From contig JBHGNT010000001.1 in assembly GCA_043228905.1 (NCBI GenBank), positions 29,760,001-29,824,000 on the forward strand: a DNA stretch of 64,000 bases. Reading direction: 5' to 3'. Positions within the stretch are counted from its first letter, which is position 1. Every line of letters starts with the position of its first letter. The stretch comes from Azolla caroliniana. Taxonomy: Eukaryota > Plantae > Polypodiophyta. Under the pieces are notes generated by a model. That model saw only the letters and a program-made list of their open reading frames with translations, ran no database searches and was not told the origin of the DNA. Below, piece by piece: positions 6,402 through 29,619 of this stretch. Both the position numbers and the translations under genes were made by a program.

Positions 6402-8645
6402 CTAATTAGCTTGGCTTCGGAATGCCTGTTGCAGCTGGAGGACCTGCTGTCTCTGTTCTGGAGGCAAAGAATTAATCTGTTCGTGCGTCAAATTCATAAC
6501 TTGTTGCAGCAATACCTTCTGTTGCTCTGCCTCAATAGATGCCTACATGAGAAAGGGATCATTAAAGCATCTTTTGTAGCCACAAGGGTGAAAGTGAGCT
6601 TCACATGCTTGTCTTTAGAAAGAGAGTCCTAACTTCTAGGAAAACATGCATAGGTTTCCAAATTTTAATAGAATATCCCTATCAGTACAAAATATACCAT
6701 TAAACAGGGGTACTCTAGTGGCTTTTTAAAGCTTAAGGGTATTGGAGGAAATATAGATATTTTGGTGTTTTCCCTATAATAAATAGATATAAACCTGTGG
6801 TGGTTGCAGTTGTTGAGGTTGAGATTGTGCCACCTGCTGCCCATATCCTTGAGCATGATTTAAGGGAGGTGGTGCATTGGCAGGAGCAGCTGCATAAGGA
6901 TGATGTCCAGGTGCCACATGGCCAATAGGTGCAGCTGCACTAGTCTGTGGTAAAGCCAAAGACCCACTCGATGCCATTTGTTGATTCCATATTCCTAAAG
7001 GAGCAGACCCACTAGGAGAACCTAGGCCTGGGTGTGAATGACCACCACCCAATGGTAAAATGACACTTTGTGTGTTCGCATTCATATCAAGTCGAGACAT
7101 CTGAAAAATAATGAAATTCTCATATGTATGCTTAAAATTTTAAAAAAGGGGCAAAGACTTTCTCAAACCTGAAACATATGCTGCGGCAATGGCTGATTAG
7201 GCAAAGGTGGATGGATCTGCTGGAATGGCATACCAATGTTTGTCTGAGAGCCACCTTGTTGCTGCATCAATAATAGTTGAAACATATAAAGGTGAGAGAA
7301 ACTAAGAAAACAGATACATATTTAATATAATTTTAGTCCACTGGACGCCTTGAAGCCAAATGGCTCACAAAACTGACATAACAAACAAAAGCAATACACT
7401 TGCGAACAAAAATAGGTTTTAAATCAATGTAATACTGGTTAGGAAGAATAGATATGCCATGCCTGATAAGGAAGTTGCGGATGATAAGGAGGACCTTGCG
7501 TAGGGTGAAAACCCATACCCTGTGAATGCTGATGTTGAGGCTGTGATGAAGGTCCCAAAGGCCGTGGCTGTTGTGGTAAAGGTGGTGTTGGTGGTTGCAT
7601 AGGTTGAGGTGGATGTGACTGTGGATGTTGTATCGGTGTAGATGAAGACATTGATAATGAATGTGATTGTATCATAGTGGACCGAGGACTAAGTTGCTGA
7701 TGAATTTGAATGTTTTGCTGATAAGGAAAGGAGGATTGACTAGGTTGTAATGCAGCACTTGGAGCTTGGGACAACATAGGCTGTTGTTGAAACGGGAAGG
7801 ATGATTGTACAGCTGGTGGTTGTGTTGTAGTGGTTGCTTGTCCTTGAGGCAATTGAACTTGCAGTTGTGGTAGCACTTGTGGTTGAGTTTGCAGAGGAGA
7901 TATTTGTGGAATGGGAGGAGACTGAGTTATTACAGTTCTTACTTGAGTTTGACTAGACGGCACCTGCCCCAGTGGAGCCTGTGCTGGTTGCGAAGTTTGA
8001 GCTTGCAGACTTGCAAGAGGTGACTTCATATAACAAGAAAACTAATTAGAATAGACAGTTGTCCTATGCTGCATGAAAGCTAGTTATGCATAAACGTAAG
8101 AATTGTTCGAAAGTACAACCAGCAGATGTATGAATGTGTCAATGTAACAGAAAACTAGTTTAGTTTCTCACCGTCTCTGGGGCTCTCACCATACCTAACA
8201 TTATCTGAGCCTGTAAAACAAAGAGAAAGCATTAATCAATGCCAAGAATCACAAAGATATTATGATTTACAAAGAGAAGTAAATGATTGATTAACTAGGT
8301 ATCTAGATGTTAAGCTTGATTTAATCTTAGTACTCTATTTACCTACCTGGAAAAGAGTTTTAGTTAACTGGGGGTTTGCAATTAGGATTTGGCGAGCTTG
8401 CTGTTGATTCTGATGAATCAAATCCTGCAGATACAGAAAATAAGAGATAGGCGTAGCCAGCTATAATATTTCAAGAACAAAAGCCAAAAATCACTTGCAC
8501 TTGCCTTCATCTGAGAAAGAAGCTGATATAATTGGTGCTTTGACATGTTAGCTAGGTTACTAGTTATTGTATCAGCAGTTACACTTGATGCCTCCATTCC
8601 TCCACTACCCGGTAGGCTCACAGTTCCTAAATTGGTGTCATTCAT
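6402..8645 (-). CDS. ESP1: CstF64-like protein lacking an RRM (ESP1-type): hinge domain, Pro/Gln-rich linker and CstF C-terminal domain; about 7 coding exons
   Basis: Spliced reading: NLANMSKHQLYQLLSQMK|DLIHQNQQQARQILIANPQLTKTLFQ|AQIMLGMV (hinge; exons 8645-8505, 8424-8347, 8210-8172). P/Q-rich exons follow (~8040-7460, ~7260-7170, 7100-6795). The last exon reads EQQKVLLQQVMNLTHEQINSLPPEQRQQVLQLQQAFRSQAN* with the stop at 6402-6404. I saw no RRM upstream; the start codon is uncertain. Confidence 0.8.
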
Positions 8646-9715
8646 TATAGAAACTAGGAGTAGCGGTCTACAATTGCCTTCTGACCTGCAAGCTCAAAAA
8701 ACAGTATGAAAAACCTGCTCTCATAAAACAACGATCTCAGAAAATTCTAATGCAGCACCATTAGTAGTATTTTATTGGATGAATCCTAACAAAACAATCC
8801 CTTCTATTATATGCAGGAAAACCCAAGCATATCAAAGAAAGTTAGCATGTTCCGGATTGAGGAAATTAGAGAAATGTCATTATTCTAGTATTGTGGATAA
8901 TTAAGCTGCTTTACCCTCTTTCCACCATCAAAGATTTTAAGCAAATAGAAATAATTGAAACAGAGTAAGTGTGCACCAGTTGTGTTCTCTCAGTAGGCAG
9001 ATTATAAGCTGTCATCATGCATACATATTTGGGGTAAGTTATGCATAAGTTTGCAAATGGCCCTGTGATATCATCTTATCACAGCTAGAAACTCAAACTT
9101 GATAGTGCAATTCTACCACTATAATGATAATGGAAATTTCATTAACTTGTCGTTCCCACACCATACAAAATCTGATTTCAGTTTCTCAGCCAATAAAAAC
9201 AGCAATGTAGTTCAATAACTTGAGGTTCGCATCTTACTGAAACAACTAGCAAGAGAAATATCCCATTTCCTATGACTGCATACCTAAATTGACCTGAAAA
9301 TCAAATTGGGTTACAGATTTTTTAGAATATAATGAGTGTTACATAACATAGACAGAGGTTTGCAAAAGTCGCAGATAACCTCTTTAAAAATGGAAAAGAA
9401 TTTTTTTCCATCATTGTGGTTGGATTACTGTGGAAAGATTATTGCTTTATAATTAATCAATAAGCACTATAAAGATTTTAAAAAACTTGCAGTAGGAAAT
9501 TCTGCAGAGATCTAAACAAGATAATAACATGATGTGGTGAAAAAACATAGACCTTGACAGAAAACGTCACTGAAAGATGTGGTCATACGTCCATATGACT
9601 AGACTTTCCATTTTGAATGCAACTTGTGAATGAAAGAGAATGTATTGATCTCTTGGGAAGATAAAATTATATACAAAACATGGCACACTTAAATGTATCT
9701 TTCTAAGTTCATATG

Positions 9716-9833: not shown

Positions 9834-12594
9834 TCATAAACATTTAAACTTTATGGATAGTGAAGTTTCCCAGATAAATAATATAAGCTCCATACTAAAG
9901 ATTGCCTCAAGTTAACAGAAAAGAAAATTTAATTGCAATGAAACAATACCTTAATACACAACATTCTGAACAGAAAGCAGAAAAAGTATTTGTACATATG
10001 TAGGAGGTAACTAAAGGAGTTGAATAAAAAAGTGTATTTCATATGAAGTAGCGCACATTGTTGAAAACCTAAGTATTCTCTTCTCCCAGGTTTATTTTGA
10101 TGACCCACCAGGAAAAGGAAGCTAACCAGCTTCAAAAAGGTATTTTCTGGACCTGTCCTCTGGGATGCAACAGAATTAATCTGCACTTCCAACTGTTGAC
10201 AAGAAAAAAGAGACCACGTTAGTTTTGAACAGGCTCAATATTTTGCCCAAAAAGAAGAGAAGAAAAGGCAGTGTAATCAGCCATATGTTGGTTAAAAAAT
10301 AACATGGAACAAGGACTGACTCCTAAGAAAACCAACAAAAGAGGTTGAACTTTACCACGTGTATCACATTAAAATAGAAAACGCGGTCTAACATATTAGA
10401 TTATCTACCCAAAACATTAATTTAGGCTTTTGAATAAATTTCAATGATCACACGAAGACTCCTTTTGTTACAATGTTTCAAGGAAGAGCCGTGGATTTTA
10501 GAAAGTACTGGGTTAAGTGTGATAAAATGATTCTTTCATTAAGAGATTCGGGTAGCATTACCTTAAATGTGATATGAACATTCTTTAAATCCTCATATGA
10601 TACATAATCTGAACACTCTTTAACCTGAAGGTAAGTGTATCCTAACTATATCTTAAGGTTTACATCATTACAAAAATATAGAAAAAAACGTAAAAAAGAG
10701 CTATAATTGTATCACTTCTAAATAGTTCCAATTCAACAATTAACTAGGAAAGAGAAAAAAACGTGAGGAAATACATCAATATCTAGAGGAATATCAAAGA
10801 TGTTATGTTCATGAATGAGCATGGGACATATTTTTGAGTGTTTGCTAGGTCTAGCTAGACAAATCTTTACAGGATCCAAGTTTCTGTTGTGCATCAACAG
10901 GTCTGTGTATCATGGTCACATCCTTGATCTCATTTTTACATCATATCATAATCTTGGCCCAGGGAATAAAGAGTGATTGCAAACTATACAAAAGAAACGC
11001 CGCAGCAATGGCAAAAGTGGTAGTCAAACAAACTTCAAAACTATTAGAAAAACTTCGCTGCTGAAGAACTGCTGAAGAACGGCCAGTCCCTGCAGGAATT
11101 GACTGTTTTGTCCTACAAATAAAAAAACTTAAATTCTACAAAATAGCCATATGCAACACACAGAACATTGGCAGGACCCAAGCATCAAAGACAGAACAAG
11201 GTGTATCTTTAAAACCTATACAAACCCGTATAGTTTGAAACTCCCCTCCATATAAGCTCACATCCCCATCACATCATTCTCAATTCCAATTTAAAACTGT
11301 GACTTGCATCCATGACAAAATGGAGAAAAGGAAAGTTCGCATAAATTGCGGCCATCCACACAACCCTTCAGCCTCACTTTTTCTCAATCTGGTGTCAAAC
11401 TACATTCCTCCCTCACATTGACGTTAAATAAAACTTTTAAACCTAGCCTCAGCTTCCAGCAACAGATTGATTGTTTAAACAGTGTAAATATGTGCTTTCT
11501 AAAAAGGAATCAAGATTACATCTCCTAGGCACTATTCAACTTCATAACTAATATCTAAAATCTAAGAAATAAATGAAGGTTTTTCATATAAAGATGGAGC
11601 CAGTTTAGTTGAGTCAAGGTTGGGTTACTAATCATGCTTACTCAATAGTGGCAACAAACGAAACACTCCAACACCCACATACATAATGCTGCCGAAATGC
11701 ACACAGAAAGTTTTAGAACACCCAAACTTTGTAAGCAACAACTCTCTAAGAGATAATATATCGTTTACGAATTGCTGGTTTGAACATTATTAAAATTAAG
11801 AAAAGACGAACTCATATACTGTCAAAAAACATCTCACGCTCCTATTCTATTCAACCATTTATATGGTTGTTTTCAAAGGTTTTTACATGATTTCTTTCGC
11901 ATTGTCAATTAACCCTCTCTCACTTTCTAAATAGTTTCTGAATGCTACGCTTGTAAGGAAAATGCGAACGTAATATGTCACTCTTGTGCATAATGTCTTG
12001 TTCATGTGGCGATCGAGGCCAACGTTGAGAGAAAATATCCCAGGAACTGTCGATTAAGCTCCTCACCTATATTCGTAATATAACACAACACCAACCATTT
12101 TCTTCTTTATGACCACATGAAACGAGCTGCAAATTTTATGTGAAGTTAAAATCGAAGCGTATAACTGAATCAAAATACAGAATGTATTTAACTTAAACCT
12201 AAGAATGTTTCCTTCCATTTTTCACTTTGAGGGAGAAAACAAGAATGATTTCCCGTATATCAAACACAATCTGAACAAGAAATCACCTTTATTGACGAAA
12301 GAACATAAGCTTATTTGAAAGAAGATGAAGAAAGATAGGACTTTTAGGCTAAAAAAAGAACACGTGAAAAGAACGAGAGAACGGGATACGCAGAAACGAA
12401 ATGATAATGCAGTTTAAAGAGGCTCCATGAATTTGATGCTTTAAAGGAGACGGGATCGAGGACGAACAGAAACAGGTAAACATACATTGGTTCGAAGCGA
12501 TTCGTGAGCGCGAGCATGAAACAAGAGCAGGAAACAGACCGAGAGAGAGAGAGACAGAGAGGGAGAGGGAGAGAAGGATTCTCTGTGTACTGAC

Positions 12595-12700
12595 CTTGAC
12601 GTTGACGTGTGTGTCGGGAGGGATGAAGAAAGCGATGGTTCTGCAGAAGACCGCAGAGCTGGAAATCGCGAGGGAGGGACCAGATTCGAAGAACCCTAAC
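12595..12700 (-). promoter_or_regulatory. Putative non-coding first exon and core promoter (telo-box-like AACCCTAA) of the ESP1-like gene
   Basis: GC-richer, ATG-free segment ending in the donor CAAG|GTCAGT (12595/12594), followed by a CT-rich intron start. aaccctaac lies at ~12692. It is conserved in the paralogous copy upstream of PAC2. Confidence 0.6.
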
Positions 12701-12820
12701 TGTGTATGTATATGTATGTATCATGTATGTATATATGTATGTATATATGTATGTATGTATGTATATGTATGTATGTGTGTGTGTATGTATGTATATGTGT
12801 GTATGTATGTATAATGTATG
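12701..12820. repeat. (TATG/TGTG)n microsatellite; insertion target of the MULE, continuing at 20366-20404
   Basis: Direct reading of tgtatgtatatgtatg... on both flanks of the element. Confidence 0.9.
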
Positions 12821-13160
12821 CTCGTTGCTATCCTGCACCAAATCATAAAGAGGGCTGGTGAGGGAATCACGGCCACAGACGGTGCAGGTCGCCTAGAGGA
12901 AGGTGCGTGCGATCTGCACCGTCAGATTTCGATAAGGAAGAGCGCGCGAAAAAAAAAGTTGTCAGAGGTCACCCAACTCTGAGTCGATGGTCACCCAACC
13001 CTGTCAGAGGTCACCCAACTCTGAGTCGTTGGTCGCCCAACCGAAATTGGTCACCCAACTATGACTGTTGCAAGTTGCCCAACCGTTTTAGGTCACCCAA
13101 CCCTGACAGTTACAGGTTGCCCAACCGATTGGTCTCCCAACCGTTGCAGGTCGCCCAACC
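12821..13160 (+). repeat. Left TIR plus subterminal GGTC(A/G/T)CCCAAC motif cluster
   Basis: About 160 bp of inverted match to the right end, then roughly nine ggtcacccaac-type motifs at 12967-13160. Confidence 0.9.
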
Positions 13161-13211
13161 AAATGTATCATTCCAACCAAAATCTTCAAATAAGCTTGTT
13201 AATTACCCTTA

Positions 13212-13490
13212 AAACTTACAATAACATATCAAATAGTCACAAAATTCAACCTTAAAATACTTAAAACCGACGATCTTTACCATACTTATGTTAAAACAAA
13301 TAATCATATTAAAACATAAAAGTTGAAAGTTAAAAAACATTTAAAACATAAAACGAAGAATGTAAACTTACAATAACATATCAAATAGTCACAAAATTCA
13401 ACCTTAAATTACTTAAAACCGACGATCTTTACCATACTTCTGTTAAAACAAATAATCCTGGCAAAACATAAAAGTTGAAAGTTACCAAAC
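13212..13490. repeat. Two-copy ~152-bp direct repeat 3' of the transposase stop
   Basis: aaacttacaataacatatcaaatagtcacaaaattcaaccttaaa...cttaaaaccgacgatctttaccatactt occurs at ~13212 and ~13364. Confidence 0.9.
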
Positions 13491-13492
13491 AT

Positions 13493-15157
13493 TTATGGCT
13501 CATCCGGAGATGATGGCAAGATGCGACCACAATTCTTGCAACAATCAACATTTGAGTCCCTTGATCTAAAGGTCAAGGCATCGCAATGCAAGCATCGCAT
13601 TTTATCTGTCGCACATATTGGCAACCGCCTCCTAGCTCGACTTGCGCCTCTTTGCATTTTTCCTGTGTGTGCCTTGGAAGTGTTTGGGGAGCTGCCAATA
13701 AGATCTTGTGAAATGTTGATTGATGCTCCCCTTTTTGCACCAATTGCTTGCTTACGCCCTATGGATCCACGGTCTTCTTCGTTAGTTGGTTTCGGTGCAC
13801 CTGTGTGATACACCAATGTCTCACTTGTTTCTTGAATGGACTCCATACATGCCAAAATTGTTGCACAATCGAGGGATTGTAACCCTTGCTTAAAACATTG
13901 AATAGCCCCCTCAAGCGTTTGTAATTTCGACAAACATTCCTCCACTCGTGATGTTATAGGGTTTGTCTCCTCGACTGGTTCTACCTCTGTCTCCATTTCC
14001 GTCTCTGTGAAATGGTCATTGCGCATATAGGTTGCATGATCTATAAAAGGCAATGACCCACATAGATGTGGCATGTGCCTCTCAATAATCATCCTGATGC
14101 CAAGTATATGCTTACATTTACTCGCAGGGTCGTGGCAATCACAATATGAACATTGGAGCGATACATTATACCATACATCCGGTTTTGTCAAGCTCAATAT
14201 TTTAAACCAATATCGAGGCTCGTCCACAATATGCATTGTCGCATTATTAGTTTCATACCTCTCTAGTAGCCTTTCGGCCTCTTTAAGTCTAGTTGTTTGA
14301 TCCCTACAATTTGCACGTGGTGCAAATCTACCACTCTCACATATTTCTTGTCGTTGCTTGTACCATTCAATAACAGTACCCCCGATGCAAGTGCCAGTTT
14401 GACTGTCCCCGATTAAAACATGCACAAGATCGGTAATTGATCGGTTTATCCTCCCTCTTAAGGCAGTATATTTGATAAACTGCCAATGTCTCTCCACAAG
14501 ATTGGTAGTGTCAACATGTCCGTAGTTGAACATTCTACCAAATTTGGGCCACAGTTTCCTCCACACACATGTCAAGCCACACCATCCTCCTTCTATATAT
14601 TGCCAAACACCTGGCTTGTTTGCATATTCTACCTTTAAGTCCTCACATTGGGCATTGAATGTGGATTCCGTAATGCATTGCATGAGTTGGCACATCCGAT
14701 TATAAAGGTGGTTTCTCTCACTTGCACTTACCTTTGGCAACAAGTTGTCCAACCATGCTTTTTTTGCATGGAAGTGACACAACAAAAGTCGACAATGTGT
14801 TTGCGACCTTTGCCCATTTGTAACTATCCAAGATAATCGGTCTGTTGCAACCACATTACTTATGGCATTATACGATGTCCAACTTTTATCGATGACTATG
14901 GCATTTGGCCTCACATTGGGCATCCGTGCAAATATGACTCTCAAGCAAGTTTCTAAAGCTACTTGCTCATGGTTAGACCCCTTATCAGAACTACATATCA
15001 TGTACCATAATGGGATACCAACTCCCATGGCATTTGGAGCCACAACTGCATATAATGGCAAGCCAAATTGGTTTGTTTTAAACGTGGAGTCGATTGCCCA
15101 AGAGTTGTTTATCGACAGTCGCTCACACATCTCTAACATCCATTCATCTTGGAGCAC
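13493..15157 (-). CDS. MULE/MuDR-family DDE transposase with SWIM zinc finger and C-terminal Cys cluster; N-terminus out of frame with the upstream ORF
   Basis: WAIDSTFKTNQFGLPLYAVV (D1), AIVIDKSW (D2), LLLCHFHAKKAW (CxxH), TTNLVERHWQFIK (E), CDCHDPASKCKH (SWIM), CLHC...CKNC. Confidence 0.9.
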   Translation of the reverse strand: MLQDEWMLEMCERLSINNSWAIDSTFKTNQFGLPLYAVVAPNAMGVGIPLWYMICSSDKGSNHEQVALETCLRVIFARMPNVRPNAIVIDKSWTSYNAISNVVATDRLSWIVTNGQRSQTHCRLLLCHFHAKKAWLDNLLPKVSASERNHLYNRMCQLMQCITESTFNAQCEDLKVEYANKPGVWQYIEGGWCGLTCVWRKLWPKFGRMFNYGHVDTTNLVERHWQFIKYTALRGRINRSITDLVHVLIGDSQTGTCIGGTVIEWYKQRQEICESGRFAPRANCRDQTTRLKEAERLLERYETNNATMHIVDEPRYWFKILSLTKPDVWYNVSLQCSYCDCHDPASKCKHILGIRMIIERHMPHLCGSLPFIDHATYMRNDHFTETEMETEVEPVEETNPITSRVEECLSKLQTLEGAIQCFKQGLQSLDCATILACMESIQETSETLVYHTGAPKPTNEEDRGSIGRKQAIGAKRGASINISQDLIGSSPNTSKAHTGKMQRGASRARRRLPICATDKMRCLHCDALTFRSRDSNVDCCKNCGRILPSSPDEP

Positions 15158-15837
15158 CTCAATTGAACATCTATCAACGTATCATCAACCCTATGTGCCT
15201 CTATCTTGATCACTTCTATGGGTCTAGACTTTTTATATTTCACGACACTTGTCCCCTCCATGTCAGATGGAGTTAACCTCGACACAACTTGACAACCGCA
15301 TTGGTCAATCACTGCTTTCACATACGCACTAGGGATCCCATAGTCACGAAGGTCATTGGACCAATTTCTCTTTAATTCTGTCAGAGTACCTGTCAAAGAA
15401 CGGTGCGATGCGCCACAATGTGACGCCAATACTATCTCCCTCCATTTCTCTACGTGCGTAATCTGAAGATGAGGCGATGCCTTAAGGTGTATTGCATTCT
15501 CATTCATAAGCGTGAGACGACTCTTCATGCGCCTCCATGCATGTAAATTAAGAGGTGCCCCCCTTGCGAGTGTGCTTAATATTTCAAATGTTACCGTAAC
15601 TTGACCTAATAAATCTTTAAGCATTAAATCGTACATACCTCTAGTGAACGCAATATACCTCGCCGAACAATACATGAAGGGATCAACCTCCTCCGCCTCT
15701 TCTTCGGATGAAGCCGACTCATAGTCTTCGGATGTAGACGAATCCAAGTCATCGTCGATGGTTGCGGAGTATGGTGATGCATAACCATCCTCAGAATCAT
15801 ACAAGGACGTGATTAAATCTATTTCGTTGGGATTCAT
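15133..15837 (-). CDS. Probable N-terminal part of the transposase gene: acidic N-terminus plus integrase-type H2C2 zinc-binding-like motif
   Basis: ATG-initiated 234-aa ORF overlapping the transposase ORF by 25 nt in another frame. Contains EIVLASHCGASHRSLTGTLTELKRNW...IPSAYVKAVIDQCGCQ. Confidence 0.6.
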   Translation of the reverse strand: MNPNEIDLITSLYDSEDGYASPYSATIDDDLDSSTSEDYESASSEEEAEEVDPFMYCSARYIAFTRGMYDLMLKDLLGQVTVTFEILSTLARGAPLNLHAWRRMKSRLTLMNENAIHLKASPHLQITHVEKWREIVLASHCGASHRSLTGTLTELKRNWSNDLRDYGIPSAYVKAVIDQCGCQVVSRLTPSDMEGTSVVKYKKSRPIEVIKIEAHRVDDTLIDVQLRCSKMNGC

Positions 15838-15844
15838 CTCGAAT

Positions 15845-16325
15845 GAATCTAACTAATCTGATTAAGAATCTAACTAATCTGGTTATAAGAATCTAACTAA
15901 TCTGATTATAACTGATTAAGAATCCCCCTAATATGATTAAGACTCTAACTAATCTTATTAAGAATCTAACTAATGTGATTAAGAATCCCCCTAATCTGAT
16001 TAAGAATCTAACTAATCTTATTAAGAATCTACAAAATCTGATTATAACTGATTAAGAATCTAACTAAGATGATTAAGAATCTAACTAAGATGATTAAGAA
16101 TCTAACTAATCTTATTAAGAATCCCCCTAATCTGATTAAGAATCTAACTAATCTTATTAAGAATCTACAAAATCTGATTATAACTGATTAAGAATCTAAC
16201 TAAGATGATTAAGAATCTAACTAATTTGATTAAGAATCCCCCTAATCTGATTAAGAATCTAACTAATCTTATTAAGAATCTAACTAATCTGATTATAACT
16301 GATTAAGAATATAACTAATCCTGAT
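15845..16325. repeat. ~21-bp minisatellite (aatctaactaatctgattaag variants) directly upstream of the transposase ATG
   Basis: About 20 reiterated units, with recurring variants (aatccccctaatctgattaag; ctgattataactgattaag). Confidence 0.95.
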
Positions 16326-16613
16326 TAGCTTTTAGAGATTGTGCAAAATAAGAATGTGATTAAGACGCAGAATGTGATTATAAGACAGATATTGGAGATG
16401 CAATGAGCTATGATTAAAATGACAGAGAATGGTTTAAAGTGACAGAGAATGTGATTAATTTACATGTTAAGATGACCGTTTTTCTGGCCGTTTACATAAC
16501 AGGTTGGGCGACCTGGTTGGGTGACCAAAACAAAAGATAATTAATTTTAAAAGGTTTGGGCAACCTGGTTGGGTGACCAAAACAAAAGATAATTAATTTT
16601 AAAAGGTTTGGGC

Positions 16614-17113
16614 AATACCACAACTTGCGATTGGTTTAAAACCATACATTCAGAACATCCACAATAATTGTTGGGAACAACATTTCCATTAACAAGTAAT
16701 CGCGTTTACAATACCACAACTTGCGATTGGTTTAAAACCATACATTCAGAACATCCACAATAATTGTTTGGAACAACATTTCCATTAACAAGTAATCGCG
16801 TTTACAATACCACAACTTGCGATTGGTTTAAAACCATACATTCAGAACATCCACAATAATTGTTGGGAACAACATTTCCATTAACAAGTAATCGCGTTTA
16901 CAATACCACAACTTGCGATTGGTTTAAAACCATACATTCAGAACATCCACAATAATTGTTGGGAACAACATTTCCATTAACAAGTAATCGCGTTTACAAT
17001 ACCACAACTTGCGATTGGTTTAAAACCATACATTCAGATCATCCACAATATTCAGATTGAGATAAATAATTGTTGTAAACAACATTTCCATTAATAAGTA
17101 ATCGCGATATACA
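16614..17113. repeat. 96-bp tandem repeat, 5 copies, 3' of the Ulp1-like gene
   Basis: The unit aataccacaacttgcgattggtttaaaaccatacattcagaac...aagtaatcgcgtttac starts at 16614, 16710, 16806, 16902 and 16998; the fifth copy has an insertion. Confidence 0.95.
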
Positions 17114-17214
17114 ATGAGTCGATTCTCACTATACAAAATTTTTGGGGATTCCAAAATATAGTTACAACATCAGCTCTATAGCCAAATCTGTGCTGAAAAC
17201 AACATTCCCAAAAT

Positions 17215-19216
17215 TTACAATATGGAGCCACCGGTCGCAGGTGCAAATCCTAATACCGATCGTGCCCACTCGTCCACATGAATCCGAAGTGAATCCACTT
17301 CGCGTTTGGTGAACCACATCTCTGTGCCCTGTAACCAAATATGTATAAGAACACATCTATACACAATCCACATGAACAAGGAATTGCAATTACACTTACA
17401 AAAGTCGAAGATATCCATCCTTGTAAGAACTCCCTCACCAACATTTGGATAGTCTTCATCACATAAAAGCCACAATCCCAACAATTTGGCTGTGTTGGGA
17501 TGTGCAGTACCTGATGTCGACCATTGGGCACAATGGTGTGGTCTGACGGTTCAGATGAAATTGTCCGAATCGCCAACTCTGCCATTCTCCGCATGTTGTC
17601 TGTTGCTGGTCTGTTCAATGGATCGCAGAAGACTACTTTGCTAGTTAGCTTAGAAGCTTGTTGTCGCATGGTGAACCACAAGTTCCAATGCCCATCAAGC
17701 ACGATCGGAATGAACGTAATCTCACATTGCGCAACTTTCTTAAGGATGTCTTGCTCCTTCATTGCCTGCTGGTGTAGCTGCACCCATAGTGGGTCGACGA
17801 TGGTGAAGCGTTCTGTCACCTCGAGTGGCAATGAGTATTCCATCCACAACGTGAATAAGGTCATAGTCCATGTCGATGCCATTTCACGGCTCTTGCATAT
17901 GGTCTCAAGATCTGACTCGGTAACATCAAGGGCCATATCGAGACGTGGGCAAGTTAGCTGGTACCTGAATGCATGGAAATATGTAGTTTTGAGTAGGTAA
18001 ATCACACTCCATGTCAATTAGTAAGATACTAGTTTGTATTTCACTTAAACCCTACCTGGAAAAGTGTTTATTTGGGGTTTGAATCCATAACCTTATGCCC
18101 TTGCCATGTTGAATTTGAACTATGGCCACATCCGATGCAGCGTCATCTGAATCTGATGTTAGGGAAACAACATCAGTGTTTGACTCGACCTCCTTCCGTC
18201 GGATTGGCATTTTCGGTCGTCTCCGTCTCGGTGGAGTGGACACACCACCCTCAGATGGGTTTTGACTCTCATCCACATCCGTGGACACACCCTGCGGTTG
18301 GGTGGATATCCCCGCCTTTTTACACTGTTTCACCACAATAAGACACATCTTATTATCTGAATTTTGCCAATAAACCCTCCAACAATCTGAAATGAAATCC
18401 TCACTCATACTTACATAAGAATCCAAACCAGCTGCTATCTTCTTCGTCAACATCTCCAAACGCTCATCCTTATTGGAGTCGTATATAGTCATCTCTTTGT
18501 CCATAAATCGTGCCACGAACTCTGCCTGTGTGTCAAGACGGAGTTCAGCAGGAATAGAGTTGTATTTCGAAACAACCCTAACCTTCAACTTTCGGATATA
18601 TTTTTGTCGATTTCTGTAGTACTTGATTTCCGGGTCCATGAATCTTTTGAGTGATCTTTGACGCTCATAACTGTTAAAGCATGCCCCCGGAATACCCTCC
18701 TCCTCCTCTATACGCATCCCTCGTGGTAGGACTACGTCTATTGCATGTTCTCTGCGTAAATGTGACTCCATGTCACTTTTTTTCCGATACCACCTTGGCG
18801 AGAGGCGGCAAAACTCAGTGTAGATACATGCACGAGCCTTGTTCCCATTTGCATCTCTTCCAACCTTATACAACAAGTCGGGACAAGGAGCAACTGTTCC
18901 TTCTGCACCTGTGTTACATATTTAAGATTGACATAAAGATTGGCATAAAGATTGAGATATTGCAACGACACCAAATCCACATACCATTTGGAGGAGCATC
19001 TTGGTCCATTTTGTCCCCACTCGTACACATGTCGGCTCCTCGACTTCGCCAATGTCTTCTAACGAAGACCCTTTAACAAATCACGAGTCAACATACATGC
19101 ATCAAACCCTAAACCATTCTTGGGGGAGATTGGTTCGTGACATACCTCTCTTGAGTTGGATATATATCACTGTTATCGAAATCCCACCAATCTTTGTACT
19201 TGGAGTTGGAAGTCAT
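17215..19216 (-). CDS. Transposon-borne six-exon gene: C2H2-like zinc finger and helical/basic region fused to a Ulp1/C48 (SUMO-protease-like) domain
   Basis: Phase-consistent GT-AG splicing: MTSNSKYKDWWDF...QER|VFVRRHW...APPN|GAEGTVAPCPDLLYKVGRD...ACIYTEFC...MESHLRREH...GLDSY|CKKAG...KHFS|RYQLTCPR...FIPIVLDGHWNLWF...VFCDPL...QPNCWDCGFYVMK...SSTF|GTEMWFTKREVDSLR...GSIL*. The H/D/Q/C catalytic set is intact. Confidence 0.8.
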
Positions 19217-19834
19217 CTACCACCATTCAAGTAATCAAACATTTTTTGATTTTAGTACTCAAACACACAAAATATCAAGTTTAAGCAAGCAAATCATTAA
19301 AACCAACAATCAAAATATAGATGATTAAATCAAGTTTAAGCAAGCAAATCTAGTGAACGCAAGATCATAATAAGTTTGATAGGCCTCACCTATAGTGTGG
19401 ATAAGAGTGGTTACATCCTCTTCTAGATTATGCCTTCAAGATACTGGCTGGGATTAGAGTGGCTGGAAATCAACAAAGCCTTGCCTATTAGATCCTATTA
19501 TACTTCACTTATGGTTCGCTTATCTTCTTGTCTATAGTGACTCTAAACCCTAAAGCTTAAACATGTCTATGCATCAATATGGTCCATACAATCTTGCTTG
19601 TTTTCATTATTATTAAGAAGCGATGAATATAACATTGTGGAAGATATAATAACAAGGAGCATACCTGGGAATAGTGATGGAGGAGATCGATTTGTGATGG
19701 AGGAGATCGATTTGTGCAGCCACAGACGATTTGTGATGGAGGAGCTCCCACCTCTTTCCCGGCAAACCCAACCTGTCAATCTCGTTTGAAAAAATGACAG
19801 ATTATGACAGGTTTAGGGCTTTTATAGACATCCC

Positions 19835-20365
19835 TAAAGGAGTCTCCCAACCTGGATAAACAGGTCTCCCAACTGTTTTAAAAATCAACAGTTGGGTGAC
19901 CTGCTTCTTTTATTGAGTTTGTTGGGTGACCAACTCAATATAAACTCTAAAGGAGTCTCCCAACCTGGATAAACAGGTCGCCCAACTGTTTTTAAAATCA
20001 ACAGTTGGGTGACCTGCTTCTTTTATTGAGTTGGTTGGGTGACCAACTCAATATAAACTCTAAAGGAGTCTCCCAACCTGGTTAAACAGGTCACCCAACC
20101 TATTTAAAAATAAACAGTTGGGTGACCTGCTTTTTTTTTTGAGTTGGTTGGGTGACCAAATCAACCAAAAATTTAAAAAAAAAATGGTTGGGAGACCTCT
20201 GACAGGGTTGGGCGACCGCCTGCGCAGCTTTTTTTTTGGCGCCTTCTTCCTCATCCAAATCGGACGGTGCAGATCACACGCGCCTTCTCTGAGCGACCTG
20301 CACCGTCTGTGGCCGCGATTCCCTCACCAGGCCTCTTTATGATTTGTGTCATAATAGACACGTCG
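19835..20365 (-). repeat. Right subterminal 113-bp tandem repeats (about 2.7 copies, motif-rich) and right TIR
   Basis: The unit taaaggagtctcccaacctgg...gttgggtgaccaactcaatataaactc starts at 19835, 19948 and 20061; TIR ~20200-20365. Confidence 0.9.
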
Positions 20366-20874
20366 ATAATGTATGTATGTATGTATAATGTATGTATGTA
20401 TGTACATAGAAGATATTATAGAATCATATATCATATACTATCAAAACATGAAAGCATTACTACCCATATGTATATCCAATTGTGTTGGAATCCCCGATAT
20501 CGTAAAAATTTGAACAATGTCTCCAACTCGTCATTTAGACCATTTTGAACATACTAAGGGAAAAATACCCATTGTTGAGGCCTCAAATAACAATGGGTTA
20601 AAACTTGTCGAATATCTAATAAGTGCTTCCAAATGATATGTGCTATAGGACGTTTACTGAGCCTATGTGTATTGTCCTCCAACGAAATGGTGCAAACGAA
20701 GCACTTACTTCACCCTAGTCCTCGTCTCTTTTAAGGTTGAACCTAATGGTAGCCCACTAATCATGACTTGACTCTCCCCGTATGATTACCTTTGCATGAA
20801 ATGAAAAATGGGAATGCAAACCACATTGCAATATGGTGATAACCCAATATATTGATGCCATTGCATGGTGATAC

Positions 20875-20919
<45 letters not shown>

Positions 20920-21241
20920 GGTGACCTATAACAAGTGTGTACAATGTTGTAACAACCTATCAACCCAAGGCACAACATTTGTTTCCAATGGCAAAGATTC
21001 ATCCAAGAATGGTATATCTTGTAATTCCTCCCAAATAAATCCATAATTTGGGAGAATACATAACCGTCATTTGGCATCTTCAAATTCCAACAAGCTTTGA
21101 GATTCATTATCAACCACATCTTCCAAATCTACAACCCCCAATCAAAATAAACGATTGAATTGAGATCTCGATTTCTCTTTTCCATGCCAATCCAACACTC
21201 AAGAAGAAACGAGCAATTCATTTTGTAATGAACTACAAAGG

Positions 21242-21933: not shown

Positions 21934-24607
21934 ATTTATTTATTTATTTATATTTATTTAGTCAAGATTCACCGTGGTATTAATGAAAAGAAACATACAA
22001 TAAATTATAACCCTCCTACCCACATCAATCAACATGTCTAGTAGTGGAAACCCTCATGCATGGTCCTTTCAAGACAAGGGGCAGAAAAAACCATATTGGT
22101 GGAGCATATCTCCAATTTATTCTGTCCCCAAAAAAGGTGAAGACCTCTACCTTTTTCCAATATTCTCGAAATTGTTGTTGGTTGCGAAACACAACATCAA
22201 GCTCGCCATGTATTGCCTCATATTAACCTCTTAGAGTATGTAGGAGCATCAACCATATCTCCTTGACTAACTCAATCACATTCAATTTGACTTTCTGAAA
22301 TACACACTTGCATCTTGCCTTCCATAATATCCAAACTACTAAAGAAGATATCATAGACCAAACATTGTCCTCTTCCAAACAATGGATTGGTGTAGTATAA
22401 GAAGCCTCTAATAAATGTTTTCCATCAGAGAGGAGAAGAAAATCAACATAGTCCCTTTCATAATTCAGTATTTCTTAAACCAACCTTCCCCATCTCACAA
22501 AACTCATGTGTACACATGTTTACAATAAATAGGATACAAAATTCTCAACATTCTTTTCCATGTTGTCCTAGTTATATGACATACCCATAAAACATGGTGA
22601 ACCGTTTCACTTGGAAAACCACAACTGTCACATTTTAAATCATGGCAATGCCCCCTCATCCATTACTTCACAGGAATGTCGTAATGTACCAATAGCCATC
22701 TAAACAAGACAACTTTTCTAGGAATTTGCAAGGCCCATAACCATTTCCAATAAGAATTCAACCAAGAGTGTCGTACATTACCCAAGCTCCAAAATTTAGA
22801 TGTTGTTGGCGTAACAACCGCGCCTCCTTAGCAACTCTATACCCATTTTTACTAAGTACTAAAAAAATGGTATTTGCTGACCTAGCATTCCTTGTGCTGA
22901 TATGCTTTGCCATTTCCATTCGTTGGGATCCCACAAAAGTTTATCAATGGGCTTATTCTCGTAGGCCCACAATTAAAATAAGTTGTTTATATCATTTGGG
23001 TGTGGATTCAACATCCATTTTTTTTTGTTTTTCCACAATATATGAATAGACAACATACTCCCTTGAGTTACAACTTCGTGTTCCATAAGGATAGAATGAA
23101 GCCGTTCAGAATGCAAAACATTGAAATAAAGATAGTCACGAGAGTTTTTATAGCCCTTGCCCCCAACAAGACATGTAAAGATGAAAACATACCATACCAA
23201 TATAGACTACTTTGAGAAGGTTGAAAGGAATACATCATAAACACTAATGATTTTTGCATACATAATGTTTCCACCCCAAATTGTGCGACAAACCTGGGTT
23301 TTGTTTTCCATCGTCGAAGAAGAAAAATTCAACCAATTCCTTACTGATCCAGATTCTCCTTTATCAAAATCAGCCCATTTCAACCTAGTTCTTTTCCCTA
23401 ACATTCCCCCCCTCCTTTGATAAAAGCAATGGGTTCATTATGAGGGGTTGGCACAACCATTCATCCATACATGATGGTAGAGATTGAACCTAGTTATGTT
23501 TCAAATCCCACCATGCCTTCATGATACCCCTAAAAAACTTATTCTGGCGCAAAATAACAAGGGAATGATTAAAATCTCTTAAAAACCACCATTTAACACT
23601 ATATTGCCAGTTGCCACATGTAGAAGGCATAACCTTAACCATTTTGTGCCTTAAGATTTTTTTCCATGGCTCCCCACCTGGCAACAAGCCTCTTATAATA
23701 AATTTTCCCAAAAAGGCCTTGTAATAGAGGATCAATCACTACAAGACCACCCTCGTCCTTTGGAGCTGTAATAACTTTCCAAGATACTTTGGCTCTCACA
23801 TATGAACCATCTTTAGATCCCCAGAGGAAATTTCTAATAAGCCTTTGTACTTGTGATAAAGCCGAATGTGAACACAACCAAGCCAACAAAATGTACCCAC
23901 ATGGAAGCCAACAATACTTGATTGGCAACAACAACCCGACCAGTCAATGACAATTTAGTAGCATTCCAATATAACAATTTCTCCCTTATAGCAAGCAACA
24001 AAGGAGCTACATGATCTTCCGGTGAAAGGTTGATTCCTGCTTGACATCCCAAGTATCTTACAAGTTTACCATGCGGAGTTCATAGAAACCATTCCTGTGG
24101 ACACCACAAGGGGTTTATTGTGGTACTTACACAGAACCCCACCAACTTATTCCAATTAATAACAGTTCCAAAAGCATAGCAAAAAGTATCAATAGCACCC
24201 GTTGTACTCTACACATATTATTGTGAGAACCTTGCAAATACAGGGTTGTATCATCACCAATTTGACAATCCACAACTTGCTCCTTTAACCAAGTTCATTG
24301 TAGTCCTTTTATATTCTGGACATTACTTATAAGAAAACTACTAAAAGTTACTCAAATCATCAAATATAAAAAAGGAGCTAATGGACATCATTGTCTCACT
24401 AACCTCGAATTTGAAAATGCTTGGCCTACCTCTCTAGCTACTAATACCCTACTAATAGTTGAGTTTTAAAGAGTGGATACAACCGTTAGCCATTGATTAG
24501 GGAAACCTAGCTTTTCCATAGTGCCCCACAAAAAAGACCAATCTACCCTATCATAAGCCATTTCAAAATCCAACAACAAGATAGCTAAATTCTCTTTCCT
24601 TTCTTGT
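21934..24607 (-). mobile_element. Degenerate 5'-truncated non-LTR retrotransposon (L1-like RT and C-terminal region)
   Basis: Broken RT peptides LLLDFEMAYDRVDWSFLW, REKLLYWNATKLSLTGRVVVANQVLLASMW and RNFLWG...AKVSW...PKDEGGL. (TAAA)n tail at ~21934-21960. TSD aat(c/t)caccaaaacct at 21919-21933 and 24608-24622. Confidence 0.85.
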
Positions 24608-27384: not shown

Positions 27385-29619
27385 ATGGATGTCTCTCTCT
27401 CTGGAGTATCAATGGAGAAAGCTGCATCTTTGAAGGTCGAGGAAATGGTAAACCTCTTTGAAAAAATGGATGGGAAGCCAAGCCGAGAGGTGCATCAAAT
27501 CTCGATGGACAGGATTGGATCTCCTGCCAACACAGAAGATTCGCGAGCATTGGTATCTATCCCACAATCGAGTATGCTGTCACTTCCATCTCTCTTTTGT
27601 CTAAAGGGGAGCATGCTATCTATCCAACGCAGACATAGCTATACTTAAATTTAGACATTCTTATGCTTGACACTGTCATGGTACTGTGTACATGCTATAC
27701 TGAATATCTATTCAACAACTGATTATGTCATCATTTTGATGTCTGATTTGTCTTAAAGATCATTCTATCCATCTAGCTTAGATGAAGGTATACCTAAATA
27801 CCTACTTATGCTTGACACTGTCACGGTACTAATCAGACACTGTGGTTGAATCTAGAAACTACTGTATTCGATTTCCCGTTTTGATGGAGTGATTGTGTAA
27901 AACTCAATCTTTAATGATGTGAGAGAGGGGTTTCTCCTGAACCATGATGGTTATACTGCTTATGTTTGTGACTGCTTTAGAATAGTAGAATATTGTGCTT
28001 ATGCTTCTGATTGCTTTTAGAACTTGCTTGATTAATTCCTTCATGAGTTTTACATAATTGATAATGGTAATAAATGAACATTAACGAATAAACCTGCACA
28101 TAGACTGGTAATAAACCTTCATGATAAGATGAAGTTCACACTATTAATAGTTTCTTTCCAATACATGGTGATCATAGTTCTAATGCTATGGTTCACATGA
28201 GTGACCAATGTTTGTTCACGCATCTGTAAATATGACATCTACCTTTTGTGCTTGTTTATACCATCCTAACCTACAAGTCCATCGATATAATGCATTTAAA
28301 TCACACAATTTGTTTCCTCTTGTAGCAGACAAGCTTCAAAAAGATTCGGACAAGCGTCAAAGAGATATTGACAAGGTCCAGAGAGATTCTGAGAGGGAAG
28401 GATCTCCATACAATACCTCTATGAGTGGAAGCTCGTTAAACAAAGGTCTCTTTCTCTATCTTTCTCACATTTGCGTGCATGCATTTAGAATGTTTTAATT
28501 CATGCCATCGTTCTAATTTCTAGTAACATGTAATACGAATGGAAAAGATAAAGGTTGGAGGCATATGACAAGTGCCATTAAACACATGCTAGCATTTCTG
28601 TCTATGCCTGGTTTACAATTTATTTAATTGAATGCACAAATGGTTTCTACTTGACAGATGTTGAGATGGCCAAAATAAAAAAAGAAAAGATTCTTTCATT
28701 AATAGAAGCATGGGAAGAAAGCAAGAAAAAGAGGTCCCTTTACAGGTAACCAGTGATTGCCTTTGTCTGAGAGATGAATTATTTCATAATACATGCCTTG
28801 GAAGTTTTACTTTTAAAATTTTCGTTTTTGAAATGGTGTATGATTGTGCATCCTTTGGACATACACACGCTTTTAAGAAGAGACATGATGAATATTGGGT
28901 TACTTCTACCTTTTTTGTGTCGCGTTCACATTGTATTATCTGAATAGCAATTGGGTTCAGTAGAAAAAGGAAAACAAAACGCTTTTATTGGGTTGATTTC
29001 TGTTTTTGGGATGGTTTTTCCTGGAATCATAATTCTTCTAGAGCTGGTGTTCCATCTTATTAGTGAGCTTTTATCCTATGTTGAATTTAATTGACCTTGA
29101 ATATTATCCTTCGAGTACTGTACATGCAAATGATGAGACTAAAAGATTGGGATGAACGTACGTAATATGGAACAGATATAACAAAACAATGGCAAAATTG
29201 GATGCGTGGGAGCTGGGCAAGATAGCAAGGGCGCAAGCAAGTTTGAGAACATTTGAGGTTAATAGATTTGAATTATGCACTCAAATTTTGATTTCTTGGT
29301 CAAAAAGTTGTTTTCTGATGGGATTATGTCTCTATATGGTTGGGGGGAGATGTTTAATGCTAACCCTTCCATTAGCCAGTCCTTGTCATTATGAAAGTTT
29401 TTAAAGTCACTTTGTCAGCAGGAGAGGCTGGAAAACAAACGAGCTACTTGTGTGGAGAAAACCAGTAACAAGATCGCTGTAGTTCAGAAGATTGCAGAGG
29501 AAAAGAGAGCCCTTGCTGAAGCATGCCATGGGCATGAAGTGCTGAAAGTTGAAGAAACCGCAGCCAAATGCCGAGCTTCTGGCCTCCGGCCTGGGAGTAG
29601 TTTTCTCACTTGGCGTTAG
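27385..29619 (+). CDS. Remorin-family protein, 5 coding exons
   Basis: Spliced C-terminus KILSLIEAWEESKKKRSLYR|YNKTMAKLDAWELGKIARAQASLRTFE|QERLENKRATCVEKTSNKIAVVQKIAEEKRALAEA...KVEETAAKCRASG...* matches the Remorin_C coiled-coil pattern. Confidence 0.88.

What the first reader, a model, noticed from the sequence alone, without database searches (positions are those of the whole stretch)
17215..19216. Intact six-exon C2H2-zinc-finger/Ulp1-protease fusion gene hidden among separate ORF calls
The ORF track splits this region into unrelated pieces, but five short GT-AG introns join them in consistent phase from ATG 19216 to TAA 17215 with no stop. The product has a C-x5-C-x13-H-x4-H finger, a charged helical region, a basic NLS-like patch (PPRRRRPKMPIRRK), SIM-like hydrophobic/acidic stretches (DVVSLTSDSDD) and a C48 domain with H, D, Q and C residues. 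Inference: a nuclear, possibly sequence-targeted deSUMOylase kept intact inside a transposon.
Basis: partly seen in the sequence, partly recalled or inferred. Interest (0 to 1): 0.75.

Follow-up and report, generated by a model that had tools for sequence, protein, structure and literature searches.

The report
Transposon finger-protease accessory gene
This is a real, spliced and conserved second gene of a plant (likely fern) jumping-gene family; it joins an unclassified predicted zinc finger to a SUMO-type protease and likely helps the element escape silencing, a known kind of cargo with a front end not found described.

Summary
The gene is real: six coding exons give an open 530-aa frame. 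The finger is C-x5-C-x15-H-x4-H, not x13.

It lies in a 7.5-kb TIR Mutator element. This copy has lost 580 bp of its transposase; relatives carry an intact 974-aa one. The gene is under purifying selection (omega 0.42, p about 1e-11). All eight finger and catalytic residues hold in 10 of 10 aligned relatives. A fern protein (Adiantum, about 25% identical) has the same finger-helix-linker-C48 layout. An 11-bp motif occurs 22 times, all in the element's non-coding parts.

Ulp1-carrying Mutator elements are known (KAONASHI/VANC-KIU and others). What I did not find described is this finger-helix front end, in a TIR element outside flowering plants. DNA targeting and SUMO cleavage are untested, and Ulp1's first clamp tryptophan is replaced. 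The only contig bridging finger to protease comes from a broken paralogue. The scan noted other Ulp1 transposons on other DNA, not this family. Verdict: new variant of a known kind.

The parts
12820..20365 (-). Whole TIR Mutator-like element (7546 bp), non-autonomous copy
   Evidence: TIRs, transposase, empty-site paralogue; full-length relatives L003 and L008
12811..12819 (+). Left copy of candidate 9-bp target-site duplication ATAATGTAT
   Evidence: Sequence; lies in a (TATG)n microsatellite, so weak
20366..20374 (+). Right copy of candidate target-site duplication
   Evidence: Sequence; the same 9-mer recurs a few bases further on
12820..13000 (+). Left TIR
   Evidence: 158 aligned nt at 89% to the right end; outer ~19 nt imperfect
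20186..20365 (-). Right TIR
12967..13159 (+). Cluster of 8 GGTCNCCCAAC motifs, left subterminal
16503..16578 (-). Cluster of 3 motifs in the spacer, upstream of the transposase gene
   Evidence: L008 has 8 in this spacer
19863..20217 (.). Cluster of 11 motifs on both strands, upstream of the finger-protease gene, partly in a 113-bp tandem repeat
13493..15837 (-). MULE transposase remnant, split into two frames by a 580-bp deletion near 15157 that removes the C-C-H-H (WRKY/GCM1-like, name recalled) region
   Evidence: PF10551 38.7 bits, cut-off 27.6; intact 974 aa in L003, L008, L009; junction with GGT microhomology; motif position
19665..19827 (-). Non-coding first exon (5' end not mapped)
   Evidence: X4 contig piece 19665-19827 and joint 19216/19665
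19217..19664 (-). 5' UTR intron, 448 nt, GT-AG
   Evidence: Joint in X3 (2 contigs), X4 (1) and X1
19146..19216 (-). Coding exon 1 (71 nt, ATG)
18985..19070 (-). Coding exon 2 (86 nt; 146 nt in L007-L009)
   Evidence: Acceptor 19071 from RNA, conserved
18415..18902 (-). Coding exon 3: finger plus helical region (alternative acceptor at 18909 adds 6 nt)
   Evidence: Both acceptors in contigs; omega 0.35
18745..18828 (-). C-x5-C-x15-H-x4-H predicted zinc finger
18056..18324 (-). Coding exon 4: linker with basic patch (18234-18193) and SIM-like stretch (18174-18142)
   Evidence: omega 0.52, p=0.052
17400..17964 (-). Coding exon 5: C48 catalytic domain (H 17690, D 17624, Q 17492, C 17474)
17215..17328 (-). 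Coding exon 6, end of the protease domain and stop
   Evidence: Joint 17329-17399 in X1, X3, X4
15845..17092 (.). Spacer with 21-bp and 96-bp tandem arrays between the two genes

Best explanation
This is the fixed, spliced, selectively conserved second gene of a TIR Mutator transposon family in a land plant (likely a fern), and its product is likely a nuclear SUMO-type isopeptidase that the predicted finger-helix module likely tethers to chromatin of the element, where it would strip SUMO from silencing or repair proteins and so favour the element's expression and spread. Shown: gene structure, splicing in the family, position inside the element, conservation of finger and catalytic residues, omega below 1, same layout in a distant fern. 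Inferred: zinc binding, nuclear import, catalytic activity, SUMO as substrate, chromatin tethering, anti-silencing effect. The most specific step, that the finger itself reads the GGTCNCCCAAC clusters upstream of both genes, is the least certain (about 0.2-0.3). This window's copy has a broken transposase, so it could move only with help from an intact copy, but it could still supply the accessory protein.
For: Open 530-aa frame. All five introns and a UTR intron spliced. Intron 3, readable in frame here, holds a TGA in L006-L010, so it is a true intron. Raw poly(A) reads: 9, 8 and 17 in about 12 million records per run, all with the first mate on +, i.e. gene sense in most stranded libraries. 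Pfam C48 above cut-off; yeast Ulp1 is the best PDB sequence match (E 0.0043 single, 3.7e-5 profile). The top 7 VIA-align rows are CE-clan proteases (best Z 9.0, rmsd 3.3, 120 aligned). CCHH and HDQC kept in 10 of 10 aligned loci. GY codon model on 5 copies: omega 0.42, 2dlnL 45.7 against omega=1; finger exon 0.35, protease 0.425, transposase 0.29. Adiantum KAI5078656.1 (P0092, 700 aa) has the same finger spacing, helices, acidic linker and C48 with H, D, Q, C (blastp E 2.5e-13 and 4.5e-9); its cluster has 6 members on 5 chromosome-scale contigs. The finger-helix model is confident (pLDDT 87.5), and 6 of 71 homologues, all distant ones, carry GRP/GRR just after the finger (the AT-hook likeness is recalled). 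The motif occurs 22 times against 0.05 expected, all inside the element and none in its genes; the same holds for L003 (21) and L008 (22). Precedent: VANC proteins bind short motifs amplified by tandem repeats in non-coding parts of their elements (PMC5735166, passages), and some carry Ulp1 (PMC13317346, passages).
Against: No test of DNA binding, zinc, location or proteolysis. Ulp1 Trp448 aligns with Glu here, and the family has GEMASTW in place of RWLND; that this Trp clamps SUMO's Gly-Gly is recalled. Structure hits do not separate SUMO, NEDD8 and ubiquitin enzymes (NopD, NEDP1, XopD and SENP5 are close), and that model is poor (pLDDT 49.5). Mutator transposases themselves bind subterminal repeats (PMC5499845, abstract) and can activate their own copies (10.64898/2026.08.24.746577, section 7). 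L006 has a finger exon only about 70% identical yet keeps the same motif. Selection is moderate: intron divergence (0.07-0.12) is about equal to dN; 0-fold against 4-fold sites is clear for W-L008 (p 3.5e-6; non-CpG 0.0027) but not for W-L006 (p 0.085; 0.22); W against L003 shows about 5 non-synonymous and 1 synonymous change. Expression is very low, many spliced contigs are deletion derivatives, no contig spans an intact full transcript, and two near-identical contigs are unspliced at intron 3 or 4.
Confidence: 0.5

Rival explanations
1. The protein is a transposition helper, not a DNA reader. The transposase's own zinc finger binds the 11-bp motif; the finger-helix module binds the transposase or a host protein, and the protease removes SUMO from the transpososome or from repair factors.
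For: The intact transposase has its own C-C-H-H region. Muta1 transposase binds its ends, and subterminal repeats affect transposition (PMC5499845, abstract). MURB binds the MURA N-terminus (PMC12973397, section 7). A repair role for transposon Ulp1 domains was proposed in PMC2836005 (passages). 19 of 22 motifs are subterminal. The motif is unchanged in L006 despite a diverged finger.
Against: Motif clusters also lie in the internal spacer, far from the ends (3 here, 8 in L008). GRP after the finger in distant homologues suggests DNA contact (recalled likeness). No interaction was tested.
Confidence: 0.28
2. The domain is a CE-clan protease with another substrate (NEDD8/RUB or ubiquitin), or a weak enzyme that mainly binds SUMO as a decoy, helped by the SIM-like stretch.
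For: First clamp Trp and the WLND motif are replaced family-wide. NEDP1 is second in VIA-align (Z 8.0, rmsd 4.1, 131 aligned) and NopD, also solved with ubiquitin, is first.
Against: Best sequence match is Ulp1, then SENP7. H, D, Q and C are kept from this family to Adiantum at about 22% identity. The VVxLT-S-D stretch is kept in close homologues.
Confidence: 0.14
3. It is a captured host gene carried neutrally (Pack-MULE passenger); it looks intact only because the copy is young.
For: This subfamily is young (99% to L001-L003, L005). dN is about equal to intron divergence. Broken copies exist (L004, L010).
Against: omega 0.42 with p about 1e-11. Same place in all three long loci with both genes across two subfamilies, plus L002 and L006. 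In open copies, exon length changes are multiples of three (60 and 3 nt) while introns shift by 1, 25 or 37 nt. Same layout in a distant fern.
Confidence: 0.05
4. It is a host gene or a domesticated gene that happens to lie between TIR-like repeats.
For: Spliced, transcribed and conserved, as host genes are.
Against: Different flanks around near-identical copies (W, L001, L003), an empty-site paralogue in the window, and a linked transposase.
Confidence: 0.03

Closest known systems
KAONASHI (KI-MULE) / Ulp1-carrying VANC (KIU) genes of Arabidopsis VANDAL elements (PMC13317346, PMC2528002, PMC5735166; passages)
   Same: Separate accessory gene with a Ulp1 domain inside a Mutator element; short motif amplified in tandem-repeat-rich non-coding regions; Ulp1 function unknown there too.
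   Different: Those are non-TIR elements of flowering plants with the ULP gene reversed to mudrA and VANC domains DUF1985/DUF287. Here: long TIRs, same orientation, no DUF1985/DUF287 hit, an unclassified finger-helix front end, and named homologues only from a fern.
ULP1-containing TIR-MULEs of melon, rice and grapevine, and CACTA-ULP elements (PMC2528002, passages; PMC12973397 section 7 lists Peptidase_C48 as recurrent in non-transposase proteins of active TIR elements)
   Same: TIR element with a ULP gene; both orientations reported.
   Different: No finger of this kind is mentioned in the passages read; supplements (e.g. Table S6 of PMC12973397) were not read and could list one.
Ginger1 and animal Mutator transposases with Ulp1 and PHD (PMC2836005, passages)
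   Same: Ulp1 paired with a zinc finger in a DNA transposon.
   Different: There the protease is fused to the transposase and the finger is a PHD; here it is a separate seven-exon gene.
Spectre MULE of aphids (PMC6446971, passage) and Spm TnpA (10.64898/2026.08.24.746577, passages)
   Same: Second ORF with a C2H2 finger (Spectre); accessory protein binding clustered terminal motifs (TnpA).
   Different: No protease reported in those passages; TnpA uses helix-turn-helix domains.
Yeast Ulp1 / SENP / NEDP1 (clan CE, family C48)
   Same: H-D-Q-C set, Pfam C48, predicted fold.
   Different: About 20% identity; WLND motif replaced by GEMASTW; substrate unknown.

Membership tests
Mutator-like element (MULE) | MULE DDE transposase | tested here: met
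   PF10551 above cut-off in the window and in L003; D, D, CxxH and E motifs
Mutator-like element (MULE) | Long terminal inverted repeats | tested here: met
   158 nt at 89%, outer bases imperfect
Mutator-like element (MULE) | 9-bp target-site duplication | tested here: inconclusive
   Exact 9-mer on both sides, but inside a (TATG)n tract; L003 and L008 show none, possibly because such assemblies merge copies
Autonomous element | Intact transposase in this copy | tested here: not met
   580-bp deletion with frame change; L003, L008, L009 encode 974 aa
Peptidase C48 / Ulp1 | Pfam PF02902 above cut-off | tested here: met
   33.9 against 20.7 bits
Peptidase C48 / Ulp1 | His-Asp-Cys triad and oxyanion Gln | tested here: met
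Peptidase C48 / Ulp1 | CE-clan fold | tested here: met
   Low-confidence model; top 7 VIA-align rows are CE-clan, best Z 9.0; Foldseek best E 3.5e-3
SUMO protease (Ulp1/SENP) | Trp clamp over the Gly-Gly motif (Ulp1 W448 and W515; role recalled) | tested here: inconclusive
   HW kept; W448 aligns to Glu in a ~20% alignment; a Trp lies 5 residues further on in close homologues but not in Adiantum
SUMO protease (Ulp1/SENP) | Cleaves SUMO conjugates | not testable with these tools
   Needs an assay
KI-MULE / VANC-KIU | Non-TIR VANDAL element | tested here: not met
   TIRs present
KI-MULE / VANC-KIU | VANC domains DUF1985 / DUF287 | tested here: not met
   No such Pfam hit at E up to 1 in the window ORFs, the homologues scanned or P0092
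KI-MULE / VANC-KIU | ULP gene reversed to the transposase | tested here: not met
   Both genes on the minus strand
KI-MULE / VANC-KIU | Short motif accumulated in non-coding regions | tested here: met
   22 of 22 motifs non-coding and inside the element; the binder is unknown
KI-MULE / VANC-KIU | Sequence-specific loss of DNA methylation in trans | not testable with these tools
   Needs transgenic methylomes
Classical C2H2 finger | C-x2-4-C-x12-H-x3-5-H spacing (recalled) and Pfam zf-C2H2 match | tested here: not met
   Spacing x5/x15/x4; no Pfam hit
BED-type finger | BED fold or Pfam zf-BED match | tested here: inconclusive
   Hairpin then helix with HLxxxH resembles BED from memory; no Pfam hit; the fold searches were filled by the long helices and the finger was not folded alone
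Pack-MULE passenger | Captured fragment varies between copies and decays neutrally | tested here: not met
   Fixed gene, omega 0.42, conserved layout in a distant fern

The most novel reading that the evidence does not exclude
Ferns evolved their own transposon anti-silencing factor, independently of angiosperm VANC. A new zinc-finger/helix domain reads GGTCNCCCAAC clusters upstream of both element genes and brings a SUMO protease to that chromatin: a sequence-addressed deSUMOylase in one small protein. It would explain why unrelated transposons keep capturing Ulp1 domains.
Probability: 0.2. Interest if true: 0.78.

Novelty: new variant of a known kind. Interest (0 to 1): 0.42.

Why it matters
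Ulp1 domains recur in Mutator, CACTA and Ginger elements, and their job is still stated as unknown (PMC13317346, passage). This family offers a compact test case: one 530-aa protein with a candidate DNA-binding domain, a candidate 11-bp site and a single catalytic cysteine. It also extends Ulp1 accessory genes to a likely fern lineage with a different front end, which points to an independent origin, and it defines a finger-helix domain with no Pfam or PDB match.

Tried and rejected
No whole genome was held, so copy number is unknown.

Word-index searches for longer, full-length relatives found none (0 of 1567 and 0 of 209 candidates). That was a false blank: a full-length fern protein surfaced through cluster membership.

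ESM Atlas gave no usable hit for the finger ORF, and a second query could not be run.

Foldseek and VIA-align on the finger-helix model found nothing clear (best E 0.44; best Z 6.3 on generic helices). The PDB profile search gave one chance-level hit. This does not show a new fold.

No RNA holder was on record among the indexed runs; that is no evidence either way.

Rejected: acceptor 19059 for intron 1 (RNA shows 19071); retention of intron 3 as coding (stop in L006-L010); an intron between the two transposase frames (it is a deletion).

The profile comparison with P0092 is circular, because the alignment holds its near twin P0067; I relied on blastp.

The site-class script stopped before L010, so that test covers 2 of 3 planned pairs. 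L011 was left out of the gene alignment (3' part only). The codon model used 5 of 11 sequences, one per distinct type.

Co-evolution of finger and motif could not be tested: no DNA was obtained for distant subfamilies.

Sasaki et al. 2022 (EMBO J) was not held; Hoen 2006 and van Leeuwen 2007 were seen only as cited.

Searches behind 'not found described': Ulp1+transposon+fern+MULE, 0 papers; Peptidase_C48+C2H2+Mutator+transposon, 0; VANC21+crystal structure+zinc finger, 0; listings showed no such family by title or abstract start. Repbase and subscription journals were not searchable.

Full report
Observation. Joining 19216-19146, 19070-18985, 18902-18415, 18324-18056, 17964-17400 and 17328-17215 on the minus strand gives 1593 nt and 530 residues with no internal stop. 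The introns are 71-91 nt, GT-AG; introns 2-5 are 32-34% G+C against 45-52% for exons 2-6. Exon 5 matches Pfam Peptidase_C48 above its cut-off, with H397, D419, Q463 and C469. The finger is C-x5-C-x15-H-x4-H at 18828-18745, not x13.

Splicing. Three raw poly(A) runs (about 12 in 100 of each read) gave 9, 8 and 17 reads, all with the first mate on +, which in most stranded libraries means RNA from the gene's strand; 4, 4 and 0 of them were 99% or more alike. Joints: intron 1 in X14 (2 reads, one start) and an X1 contig; intron 2 at both 18903 and 18909; intron 3 in X3 and X4; intron 4 in X4; intron 5 in X1, X3 and X4; and a 448-nt intron from 19664 to 19217 in X1, X3 and X4. The X1-X4 runs are RNA by guess only, but joints at GT-AG ends fit spliced RNA. 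One 1163-nt X4 contig bridges exons 3, 4 and 5. It is about 88-90% alike, lacks 7 nt in exon 4 and, going by its depth, 352 nt in exon 5, so it is a broken paralogue. Other spliced contigs with few differences are internal deletion forms, and one form joins exon 1 straight to exon 6. Two near-identical contigs are unspliced (X7 across intron 3, X3 into intron 4). So the family is spliced as predicted, but an intact full transcript of this copy was not seen.

The element. Inverted repeats of about 180 nt (158 aligned, 89%) bound 12820-20365, with ATAATGTAT on both sides. The flanks join up in a paralogue at 35544-37651 (84-85%) that lacks the element. Downstream on the same strand lies a MULE transposase in two frames. 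A metagenome scan gave 11 loci from 90 candidate stretches. L003, L008 and L009 encode a single 974-aa transposase; the window copy lacks 580 bp at a GGT microhomology and is non-autonomous. Near-identical copies have different flanks (W, L001, L003/L005), as expected of a mobile family. L001, L002, L003 and L005 are 99% alike and L007-L009 nearly identical, so the independent types are about five.

Conservation. Splice sites hold across subfamilies. Intron 3 can be read in frame in this copy but has a TGA in L006-L010. Genomic homologue ORFs down to about 27% identity lose similarity at the same point and go on with Val-Ser, the read-through of GTAAGT. L002, L003, L007 and L008 are open over the whole gene; L006 and L009 are open over exons 3-6; L004 has a stop in exon 6 and L010 is frameshifted. 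The four finger and four catalytic residues hold in 10 of 10 aligned loci.

Selection. A GY codon model on W, L004, L006, L008 and L010 gave omega 0.42 (kappa 2.4) and rejected omega=1 (2dlnL 45.7). By part: exon 3 0.35 (27.3), exon 4 0.52 (3.8, p 0.052), protease 0.425 (17.9); the transposase gave 0.29 on three copies. Caveats: introns diverge no more than non-synonymous sites; the 0-fold/4-fold test is clear for W-L008 but not W-L006; and L006 is a mosaic whose finger region is about 70% alike while the rest is 86-98%, which a single tree does not model.

Deep relatives. phmmer with the exon 3-4 ORF found 72 representatives (71 fetched), 19 with the exact finger pattern. Of 30 proteins looked up for names (two clusters were hit twice), only two clusters named an organism, both Adiantum capillus-veneris. 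One member, KAI5078656.1 (700 aa), carries the finger, helices, an acidic linker and a C48 domain with H, D, Q and C, at 26% and 22% identity. The fusion is therefore old and not an artefact of my exon joining. That the host is a fern is an inference from this; whether the Adiantum genes sit in MULEs was not tested, though six near-identical members on five chromosome-scale contigs suggest a repeat family.

Structure. The exon-3 model is confident (pLDDT 87.5, pTM 0.56): a beta-hairpin, a short helix, a helix bearing both histidines, a flexible loop, then four helices. It has no clear match in Pfam or the PDB; the finger was not searched alone. The protease model is poor, yet its best matches are CE-clan proteases. 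Yeast Ulp1 is the best sequence match, but its Trp448 aligns with Glu, and the family reads GEMASTW there. The substrate is therefore open.

A candidate site. GGTCNCCCAAC occurs 22 times in 64 kb (0.05 expected), all in the element and none in its genes: 8 at the left end, 3 before the transposase, 11 before this gene. L003 and L008 repeat the pattern. This parallels VANC targets (PMC5735166, passages) and TnpA motif clusters (10.64898/2026.08.24.746577, passages). It also fits transposase sites, as in Muta1 (PMC5499845, abstract) and AtMu1 (same preprint, section 7). The data cannot say which protein binds it.

Mechanism. Most likely the protein enters the nucleus through the basic patch, is held on chromatin by the finger-helix module, meets SUMOylated targets through the SIM-like stretch and removes SUMO, easing silencing or repair at the element (0.5; every one of these steps is inferred). 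Rivals: a transposase-bound helper (0.28), another substrate or a decoy (0.14), a neutral passenger (0.05), a host gene (0.03).

Against what is known. Ulp1 genes in Mutator elements are described in Arabidopsis, melon, rice and grapevine (PMC13317346 and PMC2528002, passages), C48 is recurrent among accessory proteins of active TIR elements (PMC12973397, section 7), and Ulp1 with PHD is fused to Ginger1 transposases (PMC2836005, passages). This element fails KI/VANC membership (TIRs, same orientation, no DUF1985/287) but may work like it. I found no description of this finger-helix-C48 gene or of a fern case in the searches listed; Sasaki 2022, Repbase and unread supplements could hold one. 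PMC6446971 and PMC12903978 were seen as passages; PMC13547354 had no hits for the terms tried. Verdict: real and conserved, a new variant of a known kind, interest 0.42.

Noticed in passing
window 11100-12819 and 20366-20990, against 35544-37651: The element sits inside another repeat; a paralogue at 84-85% lacks it and has (TG)n where this copy has (TATG)n.
   Followed up: partly
flanks of W, L001, L007, L003 (3'), L009 (3'): Several element ends abut or lie near TATG-rich tracts, hinting at a target preference; the window itself is rich in such tracts, and no control was run.
   Followed up: no
L006, window-equivalent 18900-18600: Mosaic copy: finger region about 70% alike to W, rest of the gene 86-98%, transposase start 99%. 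The finger appears swapped in from another subfamily.
   Followed up: partly
introns 1, 3, 4, 5: Introns diverge less (0.07-0.12) than synonymous sites (dS about 0.29); CpG sites explain part of it. Unexplained otherwise.
   Followed up: partly
RNA contigs X1, X3, X4 over 17300-19150: Spliced deletion forms and an exon 1 to exon 6 join are commoner than full-length forms; P0016 and P0004 look like similar deletions.
   Followed up: no
window about 15420-15290: The transposase N-terminus has an H-x5-H...C-x-C stretch that recalls an integrase H2C2 zinc domain (recalled; no Pfam hit).
   Followed up: no
window 15845-16340, 16517-17092, 19834-20172, 13212-13495: Tandem arrays of 21, 96, 113 and 152 bp fill the non-coding parts; unit numbers differ between copies.
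   Followed up: partly
L008 1-106: Another TIR-like end lies directly beside the element's 5' end.
   Followed up: no
window 22000-24500: Fragmented frames that look like a decayed LINE reverse transcriptase (by eye, recalled).
   Followed up: no
window 7439-8693, 10941-11135, 29395-29619: Host-like exons resembling CstF64, a SWEET transporter and a remorin C-terminus (by eye, recalled, untested).
   Followed up: no
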